A stretch of 64,000 nucleotides of DNA from Armatimonadota bacterium (lineage in GTDB: Bacteria > Armatimonadota > SYMT01). Below are positions 35,420 to 41,375 of this stretch, in pieces (positions within the stretch are counted from its first letter, which is position 1; each line of letters opens with the position of its first letter). A program made the position numbers and the translations under genes. The stretch is taken from NCBI GenBank assembly GCA_041690135.1, contig JAWLHY010000002.1, forward strand, positions 752,342 to 816,341. The letters run 5' to 3'. The notes beneath the pieces are model-generated. The model was not told the DNA's origin, did not search any database, and worked only from the letters and a program-made list of their open reading frames with translations.

Positions 35420-36192
35420 CCCGCAATGCCGGCGTTGGTGGGTCCCTCCGACAGCGTGCCGCTGACCTGGATGACGTGGCCCCAGAAGAGACCGCCGTCG
35501 TCGTAGGTGAACTCGAACGCTCCATCCGGGTAGACGACGATTGATTCCAGGCTCATCCGCTCCACGAACTGCTCCGGAGTGAGCTCTTCCTCACCTTCGT
35601 CCTCGTCCAGCCAGGTGTCGTTCTTCAGGTCCAGCAGCTCCTCCACGGCGTAGTCCCGCACCCGCTGCTCCCACTGTTCCTGCTGGTCCCACAGGCTGCG
35701 CGCATGCCGGAACAACATGCCTTCGTCTGGGCTGTCGTCGCGCGAAAGGCACAGTTGCACGGGACGCGAGTTCCACTCGAAGGTCTTCTCGTACCAGTTC
35801 AGGCTCCGGTCGAGCTCCAGGGTCCCGAAGAAGGGGTCTTCCACCGTCACCGCCTTCTGGAGATCCGCGGCGCGCTGGTTCAGCTCGGCATCCGCCGGCT
35901 CCTTACCGAGAACTTCCAGGAGGTGGGCGTTCAGCGTGGTGGGGTCGGAAGGATCGTCCGTGAGCTCGACCCGCAGGCGGAGGATGTCGTAGGGCTCAAT
36001 GCTGTCCATCAACTCGTCCAGCCGCGCTTGCGAGAGGCGCGGCTGACTGACGAAGAGACTGCGTTCGTCCACCCCGCCGTCCGGACGGCGCCAGGGCTGG
36101 AGCGAGAAGTGAAGGGTCCACTCCTCCTCCCCTCCCGCGCGACCGCCTCCCGGTCCGGGCGGGTAGACGATACCGGTGATTTCAACGGCCAT
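35416..36192 (-). CDS. DUF2262 domain protein
   Basis: D..FG...LDR...WY, LL.L.N..W, F...Y.DG.LF.GH.I.V.G. Confidence 0.8.
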   Translation of the reverse strand: MAVEITGIVYPPGPGGGRAGGEEEWTLHFSLQPWRRPDGGVDERSLFVSQPRLSQARLDELMDSIEPYDILRLRVELTDDPSDPTTLNAHLLEVLGKEPADAELNQRAADLQKAVTVEDPFFGTLELDRSLNWYEKTFEWNSRPVQLCLSRDDSPDEGMLFRHARSLWDQQEQWEQRVRDYAVEELLDLKNDTWLDEDEGEEELTPEQFVERMSLESIVVYPDGAFEFTYDDGGLFWGHVIQVSGTLSEGPTNAGIAG

Positions 36193-36588
36193 GGACGAGT
36201 TCTCCTGAAGGGCGGGGGGTGGGGTTCTGCTCCGGGTTGCGAACAGTCGCCGGCCTAACTGGCCTCACAGCGACTGGTGCCAGCATCACTTTACCGCAGC
36301 TTCTTACTTGCATCCAAGCCGGTGATTAGGCGCCGTCAAGGAATAACCGCTACGTTCTTCCCAGCCGACGGAGGCGGGCGCCCTCTGGGCAGTCGCTGTT
36401 TGTAGCCGCGAGTTCACTCGCCCAACTGTAGCAGTTGTTGTTGGACCGTCCCTTGGCGGTGCGAGACCATCCGATAGGCATGTGTCGGCGAGGGAAAGGA
36501 AGGTTGCCTGGCAGGAGCGAATGTACTCCCAATCACCACGGATGCAGGACCCATCGGTCTGCAACCTGTCAACGGCCGGGAGAGCGCG

Positions 36589-37674
36589 ATGTCGGAAGAA
36601 GCGGAGACCCACGGGCGGTCACGGCGCCTCCTGCTCCAATGGGCCCTGCATACCGCGTTAGGCGGGCTAACGGCCGCTGCCCTGGCCGCAGAAGTGGGGC
36701 TTCCGGAGCATGAGAAACCCGTGGGTCGGCGGGTGCCGCCGGAAGTCGCGACTCTCGGATACCTTCACCGGGAGTGCGGCTTCTCATTCTCCTTCCCACC
36801 GGGTAAGTTCAGCGACCGCCGGAAGGATAACCGGCGCGACATGGCCCGGGCCACCTGGGAGATTCCCGGTCTCCTTCGCGACACGTTCCGCCGGCTCCAG
36901 GCTCCCCCTTGGGCGGCGACCCGGTGGACGATCCGGGACGATGCCGAGCGACGCCGGTTGGCAACCCTCGCCGACCCGGATCGGCTGCGGAAAGCACTGG
37001 CCTGGTTCGAGCCACTGCTGACGGAGTTCGCGGCCGAACTGGAGCCGTTGGGAGGGAACGCCGCGCGCCGGGACCGCCTGCGCGCCGAGGTCCGCGGCTG
37101 GAGTGAGGAGGCGGAAACTCTGGCGGCACGGGTCCGCAAGCACACCGGCCTCCCGACCCCGCGGGTTCCGGGTGAAAAGGAGGTAGAGCGTACGGTTTTC
37201 CAGGACCTTTCGGTGTACCACCCTGCCTATGCCGCTCTTACCTGGTTGGAGCAGAAAGGGCACTTCACCGGCTATCCGGAGCACACCTTCGACAGCCGGC
37301 GAGCGCTCACCCGGTACGAGCATTCCATGGCGCTTCACCGGATGGTTCAATCTCTTAAACGCGTGATCGTTCAGCTTCCCGGCGGTGCTCCGCATACCCT
37401 CGGTAAAGTGGCGCTCGCATCCGGAAGTAGGGTCGTCTGTTCTCCCGGACCGACAGGAGTGCTCCCCGGTATCGAGCGGGAAGCCCAGATCCGTGCGGCC
37501 CTGGCGCGGGAGTCGGGGCTGCGCGGCTTGCTCATCTGGCTTCGCCCACTGGTGGTGGAGTTCTCCGGAGAGCTGGCACTCCTGGGGAGTGACGTACAGC
37601 AAACCCGCGCCGATCTCGACGCGTGGGAGCAGAACGCGGCGGAGATCAGCGCCCGCGCTCGCGTGCGGCGGTAA
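36589..37674 (+). CDS. Exported protein with SLH-like domain(s)
   Basis: SRRLLL twin-Arg-like leader; FQD....HPAY.AL..L...G.FTGYP..TF...RALTRYE. Confidence 0.7.
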   Translation: MSEEAETHGRSRRLLLQWALHTALGGLTAAALAAEVGLPEHEKPVGRRVPPEVATLGYLHRECGFSFSFPPGKFSDRRKDNRRDMARATWEIPGLLRDTFRRLQAPPWAATRWTIRDDAERRRLATLADPDRLRKALAWFEPLLTEFAAELEPLGGNAARRDRLRAEVRGWSEEAETLAARVRKHTGLPTPRVPGEKEVERTVFQDLSVYHPAYAALTWLEQKGHFTGYPEHTFDSRRALTRYEHSMALHRMVQSLKRVIVQLPGGAPHTLGKVALASGSRVVCSPGPTGVLPGIEREAQIRAALARESGLRGLLIWLRPLVVEFSGELALLGSDVQQTRADLDAWEQNAAEISARARVRR

Positions 37675-38010
37675 GAACACGTAATGGCCGAGGATTTCGA
37701 TATCGGGGAATACGAACTCTGGCTGCAGGATCCTGGTCCGCGCCACGCTGCGGCGAAATCCATGACTGCTTGGGGGTTATCGTAACGTGCTGCTTCACAA
37801 CCGTGAATGCGGTACCCGTATTCCACAAGAGCGACCTCGTTCTGGGTACGGGATCCCCCTTCTCTGCGTCGGAGAAGGGGGTGGGGGGATGAGGTTACTG
37901 TGGTCACCGCACCCGCCAGTGTTAACGTACTTGTGGGCTGTCGTCTTGGCGGTTGGACTGTGCAGGTGCTAGTCCATTGGATCGTGCAAAAGGGTGGGGA
38001 GGTAAGTGTA

Positions 38011-38469
38011 TTGAGACTGGCAGAGGCCCTGGTATTGCGGGCGGATGTCCGCAAACGAATCGAGCAGGTGCGGGAGCGCCTGAAGCTGTCGGCGCTGGTG
38101 CAGGAGGGGGAGGAGCCGCCGGAAGACCCGCAAGAGCTGCTGGCGGAGCTGGATCGCTTACTGAATGAGCTGACCGCCCTGGTCCGCCGGATCAACCGGA
38201 CCAACCTGGAGGCAAGCCTCGCGGACGGGCGCACCCTCACGGACGCCCTGGCGGAGCGGGACACGCTGGCGATCTACCATAACGTTTTGCAGACCACGGC
38301 GGAGGCCGCCAGCCCGAAGCTGGACCGCATGGCCCGTGCGGAGATCCGGAAGGTGCCCACCGTGAAGGTGGCGGACCTCCGGAAGCAGGTCGATGAGGTG
38401 GCGCGCCGCCGCCGGGAGCTAGACACGCAGATCCAGGCGGCGAACTGGACCACCGATCTGCTGGACTGA
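38011..38469 (+). CDS. DIP1984-family helical protein
   Basis: GGAGG then TTG; RLAEAL.LRAD..KRIEQ..ERL...A.VQEGE.P.EDP..LL...RINRTN...LTDALAERD.L...D...R..R.LD..IQ.ANW.TDL. Confidence 0.9.
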   Translation: MRLAEALVLRADVRKRIEQVRERLKLSALVQEGEEPPEDPQELLAELDRLLNELTALVRRINRTNLEASLADGRTLTDALAERDTLAIYHNVLQTTAEAASPKLDRMARAEIRKVPTVKVADLRKQVDEVARRRRELDTQIQAANWTTDLLD

Positions 38470-38723
38470 TCCTCCCGCAATTGGGAGCACAAGCAGGTAG
38501 CCGGGAAAGCCGAGAGCCGGGGCACGAGGCGGCGACTGCCCGAGTCGCATCCTGGTCATCCCGAGGAGCCATGGGATGAGGAGGGTTCAAATCCCTCTGT
38601 GCACCGTTACGCTCAGCACCGTTACAGCGGCACCGAGCATCGCGCACTGTCACTACCACGTGCCAGCTACGGCGGACCCGGCGAGGGTGGGATTGGGGTT
38701 TCTTGTGCCCCCGAGAGGATCAG
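38466..38723 (+). ncRNA. Candidate structured ncRNA with tRNA T-arm mimic and internal repeat array
   Basis: 5'/3' complementary ends, nested helices, GAGGG-TTCAAAT-CCCTC arm, four GCACYG-type repeats, followed by a terminator. Confidence 0.65.
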
Positions 38724-38728
38724 AAAGC

Positions 38729-38763
38729 AGAACAGCCAACCCGCTGGGGGTTGGCTGTTCTTT
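38729..38763. terminator. Intrinsic terminator, probably bidirectional
   Basis: AGAACAGCCAACCC-GCTGG-GGGTTGGCTGTTCT + TT, between convergent DIP1984/RNA and tRNA. Confidence 0.8.
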
Positions 38764-38764
38764 A

Positions 38765-38841
<77 letters not shown>

Positions 38842-38873
38842 TCATCTCCGCTCCGGTTTCCCGGTGCGACCGT

Positions 38874-38902
38874 ATAGTAACACAGTCCCGGAGGGGAGTC
38901 AA
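38874..38902 (-). promoter_or_regulatory. Sigma70-type promoter of tRNA-fMet copy 1
   Basis: TTGACT-N17-TACTAT on minus strand. Confidence 0.75.
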
Positions 38903-38950
38903 ATCGAGCCGCATTGGCTCATGCGTAAGGAGCCGTGAGAGGTACTCTGT

Positions 38951-39877
38951 ATGACGCTTGAGGAAGCCCTCGACGAGGTGCGCCGGACGCAAGCGTGCTG
39001 GATCGTGTGGAACGCTGAGACGGGAGAGATCCTGGCCGTCCGGGGCAGTGACCCTGGCGCCGGGCCGGAGGAATACTTCCGGCACCTTCAGGGCTCGAAC
39101 GAATTCGGGGTTCCCACCAAAACCCGGTACTTCGAGTCCGGAAAGGTGACGCGCCAGGTTCTGGAGCAGGAGCGGCACGAAACCGACCGCGTGCAGACCC
39201 GGGTCCGCGTGCTCACCTCCTGGTCCCGGGCGCCCGTGCCGGAGCTTCTACAGGTTCTCGAACGAGGCGACTACCAGCCTCCGATGCAAAAGGATTCCGA
39301 TAGCCGGATCATCGTGGACCACCTGTGGGAGTTGCATCGGGATGAGTTGGTGGGGGCCACCCAACGGCGGCTCCAGGCGCTCCTGGGAACGGAACTCCTC
39401 TGCCCCTCCGCCACGCGCCATCTCGAAGTCTATTTTCTGGCCCTGGCAGGGGAAGGAGGCCCGCTCAAAGCCATCTGGCGCGGTGAGCGTCCCGGACGGA
39501 CCTGTTACGCCGACGTGTTCGTGCTGATGGACTGCTTTGCGCATCTAACAACCTCGGACCGGGGCATCATCGACGACATCACGACTATCGTCGCAGAACC
39601 GGGAATGTTCGGCCCCCGGTTCGAGGCCATGATGACGCTGGGCAGGCTGGGGGCCGTGGCTGGGAAGCGCGCCGCAACGGTGATCCGGGACAGCATTTAT
39701 GACAGCACCCCCGAGATCGCGGCGCAGCGGGATCGGGTCCTGGAGCGGATCGAGGCGGAAGAGGCCGATTGGGCACGGTGCGCCGCCTGCTGCTACGGTC
39801 GCGTCCACAGTACGGAAAGTCACGGCGCCAGACCTTGCCCCAAATGCCTGGGGTTGGGCCACTTGCCTGTCCCCTAA
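38951..39877 (+). CDS. Hypothetical protein with C-terminal CxxC zinc-finger-like motifs
   Basis: 308-aa ORF; C..C...G...C..C.G.G tail. Confidence 0.6.
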   Translation: MTLEEALDEVRRTQACWIVWNAETGEILAVRGSDPGAGPEEYFRHLQGSNEFGVPTKTRYFESGKVTRQVLEQERHETDRVQTRVRVLTSWSRAPVPELLQVLERGDYQPPMQKDSDSRIIVDHLWELHRDELVGATQRRLQALLGTELLCPSATRHLEVYFLALAGEGGPLKAIWRGERPGRTCYADVFVLMDCFAHLTTSDRGIIDDITTIVAEPGMFGPRFEAMMTLGRLGAVAGKRAATVIRDSIYDSTPEIAAQRDRVLERIEAEEADWARCAACCYGRVHSTESHGARPCPKCLGLGHLPVP

Positions 39878-39885
39878 TAGTAGGG

Positions 39886-40419
39886 ATGATCCTGGCGAGT
39901 CTTGCGATCTCGCCGGTGGCGGCCCGGAAACTGTCCGCGCCGTCGGAGGGGCCGGAGGCGAAGCTGGCCGCGGCCATCAAGGCGGCGCGATCCCATGTGG
40001 ACTTCAGCCGGCCCGCGATCCTGATCGCCAGGAAGGACGCGGAGGGCACGGTCCGCGTGGAGATCCACCGACCCACCTCGCGCCTGGTGGGAGAAGGAGG
40101 TCGTAGGCCGTCGCGGAAGGTGCTGACGGTGGAATTTGCCGGCAGCCGGTACTCGGTGAAACCCGAGTCGGGCGAGGATGACGTCCCGAGCCAGGAGGTC
40201 GCCGCGAAAGAGACGGCTCGCAAAGCCGGGGCCGCGGCTGCGGCGGTGAGTCACCTGCAGGCGAAGGGTTGGCTCGGGTCGGAGATCGAGGTCTCCGTCG
40301 CTCCGGACGGGAAGGGATATTCTGTCCTCGTCTGGCGGATCCCGTACACGCCTGGCGGTCACTCGATCACGCTGGTAGACCCGGATCTCGCGGTCCGCAG
40401 GGTCGTTCCGGGTCGGTGA
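39886..40419 (+). CDS. Hypothetical secreted protein
   Basis: Short signal-like N-terminus; PGGH..TLVD....V.R..PG C-terminus. Confidence 0.5.
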   Translation: MILASLAISPVAARKLSAPSEGPEAKLAAAIKAARSHVDFSRPAILIARKDAEGTVRVEIHRPTSRLVGEGGRRPSRKVLTVEFAGSRYSVKPESGEDDVPSQEVAAKETARKAGAAAAAVSHLQAKGWLGSEIEVSVAPDGKGYSVLVWRIPYTPGGHSITLVDPDLAVRRVVPGR

Positions 40420-40502
40420 TCCCCCTTTTCCGCAGTGGTCCTGGAAAGCGAAAAGACCAACTTAACGGGGCTGGCCTCTCACGATGAAAGGGATAAGCAC
40501 CA

Positions 40503-41375
40503 ATGCCCGACAAGCGCTGCATGCCCGAAGACTGGGACGATCACGCAGGATGGGAAGGTTACTACGCCGGTGTGGCTGAGGCGGCCGCACGCATCGACGA
40601 TCCCCTCCCGTTCGGGTATTCGGCGGCAATACGCTTTACCCCATGGTTGGCGGAGCGCGGGTATCGGAAGGTTTGGTTTCCCGGCTGCGGCTTGGACGGC
40701 AGCCCTCGCGTATATGCCTCGCTCGGATGCGAAGTTTGGGCGACCGACGTCTCGCCGTCTGCCGTTGCGTACCAGCGGATGCTGGCGGCCCGTTGCCACG
40801 TGGCACTGGGCGAGAGAGTAATGGAAGGCGTCCGCCAGTACCTGCCGGACCTTCAGGAGTGGCGTCCCGGCATGCTGCATGCGCTGGTGCACGACTTCCG
40901 GCAGCCGTTCCCCCAGTGCGAAGTCGATTGTATCCTGAACATCCGCTCGTACCAGGCGCTGCCGCCGAACAGCATGAAGCAAGCCGCGCAGGTCTTCTTC
41001 GCGACACTTCGACCTGGTGGCCAAGCGTTCTTCGACACGCAGAACGTTCAGGGCGAACGCCGCGACAGGCTAGAAGATGCACTTCTTGACGCGGGTTTCA
41101 CACTACCCGGCATCGAGTCAGAGAGATGGTTCCGCCATACAGTAGCGGAGGCCGATATCCCACACAACTTCGTCTTGGGTCGACCTTGGGTCCTTCGGCA
41201 AGATGCCCGCTACCACGGCACGAAGGGTGCAGCCCGCCTGAAGGCCGATGAGGAACTGCTCCATACCTTTGTCGAGGAGTTCAAGCGTCGTGTAGAGGCC
41301 CATGCGACGGAGGTGGAGCGATTGTGGAACAACCCCGACATACGGATCGCCCAGGTTGTCTACAACACGGGGTAA
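40503..41375 (+). CDS. Class I SAM-dependent methyltransferase-like protein
   Basis: VWFPGCG, ATDVS..AV, HDF, LRPGG. Confidence 0.75.
   Translation: MPDKRCMPEDWDDHAGWEGYYAGVAEAAARIDDPLPFGYSAAIRFTPWLAERGYRKVWFPGCGLDGSPRVYASLGCEVWATDVSPSAVAYQRMLAARCHVALGERVMEGVRQYLPDLQEWRPGMLHALVHDFRQPFPQCEVDCILNIRSYQALPPNSMKQAAQVFFATLRPGGQAFFDTQNVQGERRDRLEDALLDAGFTLPGIESERWFRHTVAEADIPHNFVLGRPWVLRQDARYHGTKGAARLKADEELLHTFVEEFKRRVEAHATEVERLWNNPDIRIAQVVYNTG

What the first reader, a model, noticed from the sequence alone, without database searches (positions are those of the whole stretch)
38601..38659. Periodic GCACYGTYAC array inside the candidate RNA
Seen: GCACCGTTAC (38601), GCACCGTTAC (38616), GCACCGAGCA (38630) and GCACTGTCAC (38644) at 15/14/14-nt spacing. 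At finer scale a YAC/CAY triplet recurs about every 6-9 nt, immediately 3' of the T-arm. Spacers are too short for CRISPR. Inference: iterated single-stranded binding sites for an oligomeric protein (conceptually like TRAP-bound NAG repeats), each DIP1984 subunit reading one repeat, or a template-like tract.
Basis: partly seen in the sequence, partly recalled or inferred. Interest (0 to 1): 0.7.

Follow-up and report, generated by a model that had tools for sequence, protein, structure and literature searches.

The report
Periodic GYA triplets in DUF6847-linked RNA
The evenly spaced repeats are real: they are a conserved row of G-pyrimidine-A triplets inside an apparently undescribed structured RNA that directly follows one small gene of unknown function in bacteria of many phyla.

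Summary
Observation confirmed. GCACCGTTAC (38601, 38616) and GCACTGTCAC (38644) are present. The conserved signal is finer: G-Y-A triplets whose A lies at 38618, 38624, 32, 39, 46 and 52, spaced 6-8 nt apart (0 of 2000 shuffles as regular).

The tract belongs to a ~220-nt pseudoknotted RNA (38487-38708, + strand) directly 3' of a DUF6847/DIP1984 gene (38011-38469). The same RNA follows that gene in 96 of 104 fetched loci, in several phyla and on plasmids. No Rfam 15 family matches it. Protein and RNA co-occur: the same 6 of 151 genomes hold both in a second phylum.

Covariation supports P1-P3, an H-type pseudoknot, and a pseudoknot between a hairpin loop and GCUC at 38611-38614, inside the tract. 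No helix is supported for 38616-38654.

Best reading (about 0.4): the scaffold displays the GYA row as iterated single-stranded sites for the DUF6847 protein, as TRAP and HutP read their targets. This is inferred, not shown. The oligomer prediction could not be run. The main rival is that the tract is the RNA's own tertiary core. Template and CRISPR readings are rejected.

The parts
38011..38469 (+). DUF6847 / DIP1984-family gene (152 aa, TTG start 8 nt after GGGGAGG); predicted four-helix bundle
   Evidence: Pfam PF20935 E 4.2e-53; NCBIfam NF038048 E 2.4e-54; PDB 3kdq E 1.8e-50; AF2 pLDDT 93.1 with four helices. The start was read from the sequence.
38487..38708 (+). Whole conserved structured RNA, from the P1 5' strand to the P1 3' strand (222 nt here; family median 214, range 177-243)
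   Evidence: nhmmer hits in 96 of 104 loci, all on the gene's strand. One copy in the window's own genome. Lengths. No Rfam match.
38487..38493 (+). P1 5' strand GCACAAG, pairs with 38702-38708 CUUGUGC
   Evidence: complementarity. helix 1: 6 of 7 pairs have changes on both sides, but only 65% of cells are paired because the alignment is poor at the ends.
38496..38500 (+). Nearly invariant GGUAG
   Evidence: invariant or nearly invariant columns. Pairing of GGU with ACC 38655-57 is possible but shows no covariation.
38501..38505 (+). P2 5' strand CCGGG, pairs with 38677-38681 CCCGG
   Evidence: top MI pairs 38502-38680 and 38503-38679. helices 2-4: 78-93% of cells paired, all pairs with double changes.
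38509..38515 (+). P2b 5' strand, pairs with 38667-38673
   Evidence: the highest MI pairs, 38513-38669 and 38515-38667. helices 5-6. RNAalifold predicts it independently.
38520..38525 (+). P3 5' strand GGGCAC, pairs with 38660-38664 GUGCC; this helix closes the domain that holds the tract
   Evidence: helix 7: 98.1% of cells paired, 5 of 5 pairs with double changes. Also.
38528..38548 (+). Compact H-type pseudoknot: S1 38528-30/38538-40 and S2 38532-36/38544-48
   Evidence: MI. helices 8-10: 84-92% of cells paired; GGC/GCC in the window's clade against CCC/GGG in others.
38557..38578 (+). P5 hairpin (stem CAUCCC/GGGAUG) with loop 38563-38572 GAGGAGCCAU; loop bases 38566-38569 pair with the tract
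   Evidence: The stem columns are badly aligned by MAFFT (48% paired, helix 11). The loop-tract pairing is helix 12.
38581..38597 (+). T-arm-like hairpin GAGGG-UUCAAAU-CCCUC; an optional module
   Evidence: Sequence. Present in about 32 of 93 members (helices 13-14). ARAGORN finds no tRNA or tmRNA here.
38598..38610 (+). First part of the tract, with the first GCACCGUUAC copy. It is weakly conserved across the family (A 38609 at 0.81); the full 10-mer is clade-specific
   Evidence: column profile; sequences.
38611..38614 (+). GCUC, the 3' strand of the pseudoknot with P5 loop bases 38566-38569 (GAGC)
   Evidence: helix 12: 89.4% of cells paired; double changes in 4, 13, 1 and 15 sequences at the four pairs (GGGC/GCCC, GAGC/GCUC, GAAA/UUUC). 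The alternative partner 38685-88 has 0 double changes.
38616..38654 (+). Core GYA array: six G-Y-A triplets with A at 38618, 38624, 38632, 38639, 38646 and 38652
   Evidence: A frequency 0.92-1.00, Y 0.82-0.96, G 0.55-0.96 at these positions, with low conservation between them. Spacing tests. No supported helix.
38655..38657 (+). Invariant ACC (in the context ACUACC) that ends the tract just before the P3 3' strand
   Evidence: 100% in 93 sequences.
38683..38698 (+). G-rich element GAGGGUGGGAUUGGGG (family consensus GAGGGYGGG-N3-GGGG), lying between P2 and P1 on the 3' side
   Evidence: At least 90% conserved. No covarying partner was found.
38729..38761 (.). 14-bp GC-rich hairpin after the RNA. 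Likely transcript end, shared with the convergent tRNA-Met gene
   Evidence: scored on the minus strand; fold. Comparable terminators follow the RNA in other loci, seen by eye.

Best explanation
The tract is the conserved, mostly unpaired strand of a ~220-nt pseudoknotted RNA that forms the 3' end of the DUF6847 (DIP1984-family) transcript.

A stack of helices (P1, P2, P2b, P3), an H-type pseudoknot, and a pseudoknot between the P5 loop and GCUC form a rigid scaffold. This scaffold holds out about 45 nt carrying six to seven G-Y-A triplets spaced 6-8 nt apart.

Most likely the triplets are iterated single-stranded recognition sites, each read by the same pocket of the co-encoded four-helix-bundle protein. 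Several DUF6847 protomers would then assemble on one RNA into a defined ribonucleoprotein. This is the way TRAP reads (G/U)AG triplets and HutP reads UAG triplets.

Shown: the RNA family, its fold, the conserved triplet spacing, and the strict protein-RNA gene linkage.
Inferred: that the tract is single-stranded in vivo, that DUF6847 binds it, that binding is multivalent, and what the particle does.
For: 1. Triplets. Six aligned positions have A at 0.92-1.00, a pyrimidine before it at 0.82-0.96 and G at -2 at 0.55-0.96, while the spacer columns are variable. That is the signature of base-specific reading of short words rather than of helices.

2. Spacing. 7 of 8 gaps of 6-8 nt in the window, reached by 0 of 2000 shuffles. 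Family mean 3.76 of 5.03 gaps against 1.02 in shuffles. The spacing persists in divergent forms from Enterococcus, Mycolicibacterium and Acinetobacter plasmids and in the variant that lacks the G-rich element.

3. No helix for 38616-38654. MI/APC analysis, an exhaustive helix scan and RNAalifold on 44 sequences find none. The same methods recover P2, P2b and P3, and the first two also the pseudoknots (79.3% paired against 64.2% in shuffles, 0 of 500 shuffles as high; slid controls 33-44%).

4. Linkage.
- The RNA lies on the gene's strand in 96 of 96 hits and within 60 nt of the stop codon in 86 of 96.
- It was found in 96 of 104 loci; three more matched with the larger profile.
- There is one gene and one RNA in the window's genome.
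- In a second phylum the same 6 of 151 genomes hold the gene and the RNA.
- In the window's phylum 15 of 16 RNA-positive genomes hold the gene, and the 16th has only a truncated RNA remnant.
- No other gene is shared by the loci.

5. Units within one RNA resemble each other slightly more than expected: 0.404 against 0.384 in a GC-stratified null, 0 of 2000. Examples are all-GCAC in L013 and all-GCGUA in L020.

6. Two RNA-library contigs from two studies (190 nt at 38481-38670 with 1 mismatch; 165 nt at 38509-38673 with 2 mismatches) consist wholly of this RNA.
Against: - No binding or oligomer evidence of any kind was obtained.
- DUF6847 has no recognised RNA-binding domain. Its only structural relative is 3kdq, of unknown function. 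Its mean pI is about 6.0.
- The six units are not interchangeable. Each aligned position has its own flanks (AGYAY, GUYAC, CGYAC, GGYAU...). The tract length is nearly fixed: 84 of 93 are 45-49 nt. This fits a unique tertiary fold as well as it fits identical iterated sites.
- The within-RNA homogenisation effect is small and not corrected for phylogeny.
- Single-sequence thermodynamic folding gives only 0.45 mean unpaired probability in the tract (A positions 0.37-0.73, five of the six at 0.57 or more).
- Fixed-lag autocorrelation is not significant.
- Invariant positions cannot show covariation, so conserved non-canonical or invariant pairings such as GGU 38496-98 with ACC 38655-57 are not excluded.
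Confidence: 0.4

Rival explanations
1. The tract is the RNA's own tertiary core. The conserved G, Y and A bases make non-canonical contacts (A-minor, sheared G-A, base triples, perhaps with the G-rich 3' element) that build a ligand-binding or catalytic RNA. The even spacing comes from a repeated structural module. DUF6847 is functionally linked, for example as chaperone, effector or regulated product, but does not read each triplet.
For: - The tract length is almost fixed (84 of 93 at 45-49 nt).
- Each unit has its own position-specific flanks.
- The RNA has two pseudoknots and long invariant stretches (GGUAG, ACUACC, GAGGGYGGG-N3-GGGG), typical of riboswitch- or ribozyme-size folds.
- The first tract segment is demonstrably used in an RNA-RNA pseudoknot.
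- Optional hairpins are inserted at defined points without disturbing the rest (L014, L019, L032 and L042).
- The protein has no RNA-binding signature and a pI near 6.
Against: - No covarying partner was found for any column in 38616-38654.
- The variant RNAs that lack the G-rich element and GGUAG (L007, L008, L012, L017) still keep the triplet row, so the row does not depend on those elements.
- The strict one-to-one linkage with a protein gene is unusual for a self-sufficient RNA.
Confidence: 0.3
2. The triplet row is a multivalent site for a different, host-encoded factor, such as a ribonuclease, an RNA-modifying enzyme, a global RNA chaperone or the ribosome. The RNA acts as a decoy, sponge or processing substrate, and DUF6847 modulates it.
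For: - Sponge RNAs with iterated short motifs are an established kind (Csr/Rsm and CrcZ RNAs; recalled, not tested here).
- The module sits on plasmids and is patchily distributed: 22 of 201 and 6 of 151 genomes, and 353 plasmid records. This would suit an accessory regulator.
- YA steps and the ACA words at 38624-26 are typical nuclease sites (recalled).
Against: - The hosts span several distant phyla, so the factor would have to be universal. Yet the RNA is not found without DUF6847, except for one truncated remnant.
- No second conserved gene lies in the loci.
Confidence: 0.12
3. The tract is a template-like or repeat-generating sequence (reverse-transcriptase template, retron or DRT-type ncRNA) or a degenerate CRISPR-like or tandem-duplication array.
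For: Only the appearance of short direct repeats.
Against: - No reverse transcriptase or other shared gene is nearby.
- Tandem Repeats Finder finds nothing.
- Units are 3-nt words with variable spacers, not copies of one another.
- The tract is embedded in a covarying fold.
- Indels of 1-2 nt between homologues keep the spacing, not the sequence.
Confidence: 0.02
4. Chance: the periodicity is an accident of a GC-rich intergenic region.
For: Fixed-lag autocorrelation is not significant.
Against: - 0 of 2000 shuffles match the spacing.
- The triplets are conserved at 0.92-1.00 across 93 sequences from several phyla, with GC content from 0.44 to 0.65.
Confidence: 0.01

Closest known systems
TRAP (trp RNA-binding attenuation protein) and its (G/U)AG triplet-repeat targets in Bacillus (properties recalled, not tested here)
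   Same: An RNA strand carrying many copies of a 3-nt word separated by short variable spacers. The bases of the word are conserved and the spacers are not. The proposed reading is by identical subunits of one small protein.
   Different: - The word is G-Y-A, not (G/U)AG.
- Spacers are 3-5 nt (period 6-8), not 2-3 nt.
- There are 6-7 copies, not 9-11.
- The tract lies in a 3' RNA held by a pseudoknotted scaffold, not in a 5' leader that competes with an antiterminator.
- The neighbouring protein is an all-helical DUF6847, not the TRAP beta-sandwich ring (Pfam finds only PF20935).
HutP and the hut mRNA UAG repeats (properties recalled)
   Same: The triplets have about a 7-nt period, the closest match in spacing, and come in groups of a few.
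   Different: The word differs, the location is 5' regulatory rather than 3', and the protein family differs. No terminator/antiterminator alternative is evident here.
Rop/Rom of ColE1 (recalled): a small four-helix bundle that binds RNA
   Same: An acidic-to-neutral helical-bundle protein of similar helix length that binds structured RNA (a loop-loop kissing helix) without a classical RNA-binding domain. Here too a loop-strand pseudoknot sits beside the tract.
   Different: Rop is a dimer of helical hairpins and recognises shape, not iterated words. Rop does not appear among the Foldseek or VIA matches listed. Its RNA targets are not encoded next to its gene.
Bacterial Ro60 (Rsr) with Y RNA / YrlA, and OLE RNA with Oap proteins (recalled): dedicated protein-ncRNA pairs encoded side by side
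   Same: A structured ncRNA genetically linked to a partner protein, with patchy distribution. A tRNA-like T-arm module appears in some members, as in YrlA.
   Different: There is no Ro60 or Oap homology, and no Rfam match to Y RNA or OLE. The RNA here is the 3' end of the protein's own transcript.

Membership tests
DUF6847 / DIP1984 protein family (the neighbouring gene) | Match to Pfam PF20935 and NCBIfam NF038048 above the curated cut-offs, and similarity to the 3kdq structure | tested here: met
   Pfam 179.5 bits against a cut-off of 27; NCBIfam 183.5 bits against 70; 3kdq E 1.8e-50; model against 3kdq TM 0.93, Z 15.9.
Any Rfam 15 RNA family | Covariance-model match to the region at E <= 1 | tested here: not met
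   In window 36000-41000 the only matches are the tRNA-Met gene and a weak hit on that same tRNA. In 8 representative loci from 6 taxa there is no hit inside the RNA.
TRAP-type triplet-repeat target | 9-11 (G/U)AG triplets with 2-3-nt spacers in a 5' leader, and a TRAP-family protein (definition recalled) | tested here: not met
   The triplets are G-Y-A with 3-5-nt spacers and 6-7 copies, located 3' of the gene. Only PF20935 was found on the neighbour.
HutP-type target | UAG triplets with 4-nt spacers upstream of a terminator, and a HutP-family protein (definition recalled) | tested here: not met
   The spacing is similar (6-8 nt). The word, the location and the protein family differ.
CRISPR array | Direct repeats of about 23-50 nt separated by unique spacers of similar length | tested here: not met
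   The repeated words are 3-10 nt long with a 6-15-nt period. Tandem Repeats Finder finds nothing, and the tract lies within a covarying fold.
tRNA / tmRNA / tRNA-like structure | Acceptor stem with a 3' NCCA, D-, anticodon- and T-arms, recognised by ARAGORN or RF00005 | tested here: not met
   ARAGORN and Rfam find no tRNA or tmRNA at 38470-38760. Only a T-arm-like hairpin is present, in about a third of members. ARAGORN calls a tRNA within the RNA's span in only one of the 104 loci scanned, L075.
Type III toxin-antitoxin RNA (ToxI-like) | Tandem 34-45-nt direct repeats upstream of an endoribonuclease toxin gene (definition recalled) | tested here: not met
   There are no tandem repeats, the RNA is downstream of the gene, and the protein has no PADLOC match.
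Iterated-site RNP with a homo-oligomeric reader (functional class, not a sequence family) | The protein forms a homo-oligomer and binds the RNA with a stoichiometry equal to the number of words | not testable with these tools
   The homo-oligomer prediction could not be run because the queue was full at every attempt. No protein-RNA predictor is on hand. The PDB entry 3kdq holds 4 chains, which says nothing certain about the assembly.

The most novel reading that the evidence does not exclude
DUF6847 and its 3' RNA form a previously unrecognised, self-contained bacterial ribonucleoprotein module, found on chromosomes and plasmids of many phyla. A pseudoknotted scaffold presents a ruler of G-Y-A triplets on which a defined number of four-helix-bundle protomers assemble: a protein oligomer or short filament templated by its own transcript's 3' end. 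That would be a new protein fold for sequence-specific single-strand RNA reading, and a new RNP class comparable in spread to Ro/Y RNA.
Probability: 0.3. Interest if true: 0.88.

Novelty: new variant of a known kind. Interest (0 to 1): 0.78.

Why it matters
**A large, apparently uncatalogued RNA class.** The RNA is about 214 nt long with two pseudoknots. It was seen here in Chloroflexota, Armatimonadota, Cyanobacteriota, Campylobacter, Deinococcales, Bacillota, Actinomycetota and Gemmatimonadota records, and on plasmids. It matched no Rfam 15 family, and none of my literature searches found it.

**A first functional handle on a family of unknown function.** The RNA gives the DUF6847/DIP1984 family a concrete lead. 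In Acinetobacter plasmid papers this family still carries the legacy label 'septicolysin, pore-forming toxin' (passages read in PMC3358182). The predicted four-helix bundle and the obligatory RNA partner sit poorly with a cytolysin.

**A directly testable hypothesis.** If the triplet row is read by the protein, this would be a new fold for iterated single-strand RNA recognition. The tests need only one recombinant protein, one in-vitro transcript and triplet mutants.

Tried and rejected
- **Homo-oligomer prediction of DUF6847 (4 copies):** never ran. Nothing can be said about assembly.
- **Tandem Repeats Finder:** nothing.
- **Fixed-lag autocorrelation of the column profile:** not significant.
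- **Alternative pairings:** GCYC with the G-rich element, and GGU with ACC, are 93% pairable but show 0 double changes. They are neither supported nor excluded.
- **Single-sequence thermodynamic accessibility:** ambiguous, 0.45 mean unpaired probability.
- **Structure searches with the protein model:** only 3kdq. Everything else is generic helical hairpins.
- **ESM Atlas:** only unnamed clusters at 0.89-0.90.
- **PADLOC:** no match.
- **Neighbouring genes:** no conserved neighbour gene. tRNA genes lie within about 1.5 kb in 11 of 104 loci only.
- **Metatranscriptome contigs:** no contig covers the CDS 38011-38469 in the two runs laid. Because these are contigs, that gap proves nothing about processing or transcript ends.
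- **Literature searches:**
  - 'DIP1984'/'DUF6847' found 1 unrelated paper (listing only).
  - 'septicolysin' found 34 papers. The 15 listed were mostly on Acinetobacter plasmids (listing).
  - A combined search was swamped by generic terms.
  - Sequence-string searches found only human c-MYC and miRNA papers (10 of 16 listed).
  - Two structured-ncRNA discovery surveys (PMC8632094, PMC11109978) do not mention the family in their main text ('find' only; supplements not read).
- **A. baumannii plasmid locus L105:** no nhmmer hit at E <= 10. The resemblance there (GUUAC-N2-GUUAC ... AACUACCAUGUACUG) is by eye only.
- **L047:** no match; only 146 nt follow the gene before the contig ends.
- **Full-length covariance model:** not built (alignment too wide, and a long calibration expected). 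A sequence-only model of the 3' half was used instead.
Full report
**1. The observation**

- The degenerate 10-mer GCACYGTYAC occurs 4 times in 64 kb against 0.5 expected, and three of the four lie in the tract.
- Tandem Repeats Finder sees no array, so these are not head-to-tail duplications.
- The robust signal is finer. [G/T][C/T]A triplets have their A at 38603, 09, 15, 18, 24, 32, 39, 46 and 52. Seven of the 8 gaps are 6-8 nt, which 0 of 2000 dinucleotide-preserving shuffles reach.
- A strict period is not supported. Autocorrelation of the family's column profile at a fixed lag is not significant.

**2. What surrounds it**

- The ORF at 38011-38469 (TTG start behind GGGGAGG) is a DUF6847/DIP1984-family protein: Pfam E 4e-53, NCBIfam E 2e-54, PDB 3kdq E 2e-50.
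- Its model is a confident four-helix bundle (pLDDT 93). The only meaningful structural relative is 3kdq, whose function is unknown.
- The 290 nt between its stop codon and a convergent tRNA-Met gene (38765-38841) contain no Rfam family. They fold better than shuffles (z -3.06) and end in a 14-bp hairpin at 38729-38761.

**3. Related loci**

- The gene occurs once in the window's genome. It is over the Pfam cut-off in 22 of 201 genomes sampled from its phylum.
- The 450 nt downstream of all 20 good loci showed the same blocks by eye.
- A scan of genome contigs with a protein alignment found 554 relatives, of which 80 were kept. Their record titles name Chloroflexota, Armatimonadota, Cyanobacteriota, Campylobacter, Deinococcales, Bacillota and Gemmatimonadota, among others.
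- An nhmmer profile built from 16 RNAs hit 96 of the 104 loci then held, with E from 3e-45 to 4e-9. All 96 hits are on the gene's strand, and 86 start within 60 nt of the stop codon.
- The eight misses are accounted for as follows:
  - L021-L024 are not true family members (weak hits; they are not among the 100 loci of the DUF6847 cluster).
  - L007, L008 and L012 carry a variant RNA that the larger profile finds.
  - L047 has only 146 nt after the gene before its contig ends.
- Three loci duplicate others, which leaves 93 distinct RNAs.
- On plasmids, the protein matches 353 records, 325 of them Acinetobacter. The RNA follows the gene in Picosynechococcus (E 8e-20), Mycolicibacterium (2e-9) and Enterococcus faecium (6e-7). 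In an A. baumannii plasmid the resemblance is visible only by eye.
- Eight representative loci have no Rfam match in the RNA.

**4. Co-occurrence of gene and RNA**

- The window's genome has a single RNA copy. So do four genomes from other groups.
- A sequence-only model of the tract plus the 3' part (R1) hit 16 of 151 genomes of the window's phylum. Fifteen of them are DUF6847-positive.
- The sixteenth, G011, has only the 3' half of the RNA, fused behind a secretin-like ORF and with ACUGCC in place of the invariant ACUACC. I read this as a remnant.
- Which of the other DUF6847-positive genomes were among those 151 is not shown. One of them carries the variant RNA that R1 would be expected to miss.
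- In a second phylum, centred on a cyanobacterial genome, the same 6 of 151 genomes hold the gene and the RNA, adjacent and on the same strand.
- No other ORF family is shared across the loci. Gene plus RNA is therefore a self-contained two-part module.

**5. The fold**

I combined mutual information with APC correction on the 93-sequence alignment and explicit pair counts. Overall 79.3% of cells are paired against 64.2% in shuffles (0 of 500 shuffles as high); slid controls give 33-44%. These support:

| Element | Window coordinates |
|---|---|
| P1 | 38487-93 / 38702-08 |
| P2 | 38501-05 / 38677-81 |
| P2b | 38509-15 / 38667-73 |
| P3 | 38520-25 / 38660-64 |
| H-type pseudoknot | S1 38528-30 / 38538-40; S2 38532-36 / 38544-48 |
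| P5 hairpin | 38557-78 |
| T-arm-like hairpin (optional) | 38581-97 |
| Loop-tract pseudoknot | P5 loop 38566-69 (GAGC) / tract 38611-14 (GCUC) |

- The loop-tract pseudoknot is paired in 89.4% of cells. It changes in a compensatory way (GGGC/GCCC, GAGC/GCUC, GAAA/UUUC), with 13 and 15 sequences changed on both sides at two of its pairs.
- G-U pairs, for example 34 at one P1 pair, fix the strand as +.

**6. The rest of the tract**

- From 38616 to 38654 there is no covarying pair and no run of 3 or more pairable columns with variation. The one exception touching the tract's end is the invariant GGU/ACC, which has no double change.
- RNAalifold on 44 sequences predicts P2, P2b and P3 and nothing in the tract.
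- The column profile shows six G-Y-A triplets (A 0.92-1.00, Y 0.82-0.96, G 0.55-0.96) separated by poorly conserved spacers, then the invariant ACC.
- The segment length is nearly fixed: 84 of 93 are 45-49 nt.
- Divergent members keep the 6-8-nt spacing while the word drifts. Examples are GCAC in L013 and GCGUA in L020, as well as the Enterococcus, Mycolicibacterium and Acinetobacter forms.
- Units within one RNA are slightly more alike than a GC-stratified null (0.404 against 0.384; 0 of 2000). This effect is small and not corrected for phylogeny.
- Thermodynamic folding of single sequences is ambiguous: mean unpaired probability 0.45, rising to 0.57-0.73 at five of the six triplet adenines and 0.37 at 38618.

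**7. Expression hint**

Two RNA libraries from two studies each contain one short contig made wholly of this RNA: 190 nt at 38481-38670 with 1 mismatch, and 165 nt at 38509-38673 with 2 mismatches. Contigs cannot show transcript ends, strand or level, and DNA carry-over is not excluded.

**8. Mechanism**

I commit, at about 0.4, to the reading that the scaffold displays the G-Y-A row as iterated single-stranded sites for the co-encoded DUF6847 protein, giving a multimeric RNP.
- Shown: the family, the fold, the conserved spacing and the linkage.
- Inferred: single-strandedness in vivo, binding, multivalency, and what the particle does.

The main rival (0.3) is that the row is the RNA's own tertiary core. 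The fixed length, the position-specific flanks, the lack of any RNA-binding signature and the near-neutral pI of the protein all fit that rival as well. A third reading, a host factor reading the row, gets 0.12. Template, CRISPR-like and chance readings are rejected.

**9. Comparison with what is known**

- The arrangement works like TRAP or HutP targets (properties recalled). It fails their membership tests on word, spacing or location, and on protein family.
- It is not a tRNA, a tmRNA, a CRISPR array or a ToxI-type RNA.
- I found nothing in print on this RNA. 'DIP1984'/'DUF6847' found 1 unrelated paper. The 15 'septicolysin' papers listed out of 34 (listing only) are mostly on Acinetobacter plasmids. 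Conserved-word strings retrieve only c-MYC and miRNA papers. Two ncRNA discovery surveys do not mention the family in their main text (supplements not read, so a listing there cannot be excluded).
- One Acinetobacter paper calls the gene a 'septicolysin-like' pore-forming toxin (passages read). The four-helix-bundle model and the RNA partner do not fit that label; this is my inference.

**10. Verdict**

The surrounding RNA appears to be an undescribed and widespread class. The homo-oligomer prediction that would have tested a prerequisite of the favoured reading could not be run.

Noticed in passing
window 38683-38698 (family consensus GGUGAGGGYGGG-N3-GGGG): A G-tract run conserved at 90% or more that closely resembles the c-MYC Pu22 quadruplex-forming sequence. 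A literal search for it retrieves only MYC G4 and miRNA papers. No C-rich partner covaries with it. It could form a G-quadruplex or be a protein site. It is absent from the variant RNAs L007, L008, L012 and L017.
   Followed up: partly
window 38528-38548: A compact H-type pseudoknot (GGC/GCC interleaved with GCGAC/GUCGC) that covaries with CCC/GGG plus CCAAC/GUUGG in other clades.
   Followed up: yes
window 38581-38597; L075 1715-1805: The T-arm-like hairpin (5 bp plus UUCAAAU) is an optional module in about 32 of 93 RNAs. In L075 ARAGORN calls a 91-nt 'tRNA-Val' that falls within the RNA's span.
   Followed up: partly
L109 1628-1745 (G011:C33): A genome without a DUF6847 match holds only the 3' half of the RNA, directly behind a secretin-like ORF, with the invariant ACUACC changed to ACUGCC. 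It is probably a remnant left after the gene and the 5' half were lost.
   Followed up: yes
L016 265-720 (G126): The DUF6847 frame there has one in-frame TGA while the RNA behind it is intact (E 1e-42). This could be a pseudogene, a sequencing error or recoding; not resolved.
   Followed up: no
window 38729-38841: A convergent tRNA-Met gene (minus strand, 38765-38841) shares the hairpin 38729-38761 with the RNA's 3' end. tRNA genes lie within about 1.5 kb in 11 of 104 loci, including clusters of 3 and 8. This may be a mild enrichment, but related loci are not independent.
   Followed up: partly
L105 (A. baumannii plasmid NZ_CP027244.1, locus 1501-2285): The gene called 'septicolysin' in Acinetobacter plasmid papers is a DIP1984-family gene beside a TonB-dependent receptor gene, znuD2. 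An unannotated 320-nt gap behind it carries a divergent copy of the tract, seen by eye only.
   Followed up: partly
window 37807-38010: The mechanical ORF extends 68 codons upstream of the likely TTG start at 38011. The Pfam match starts at residue 78 of the long ORF, and homologues are about 152 aa.
   Followed up: yes
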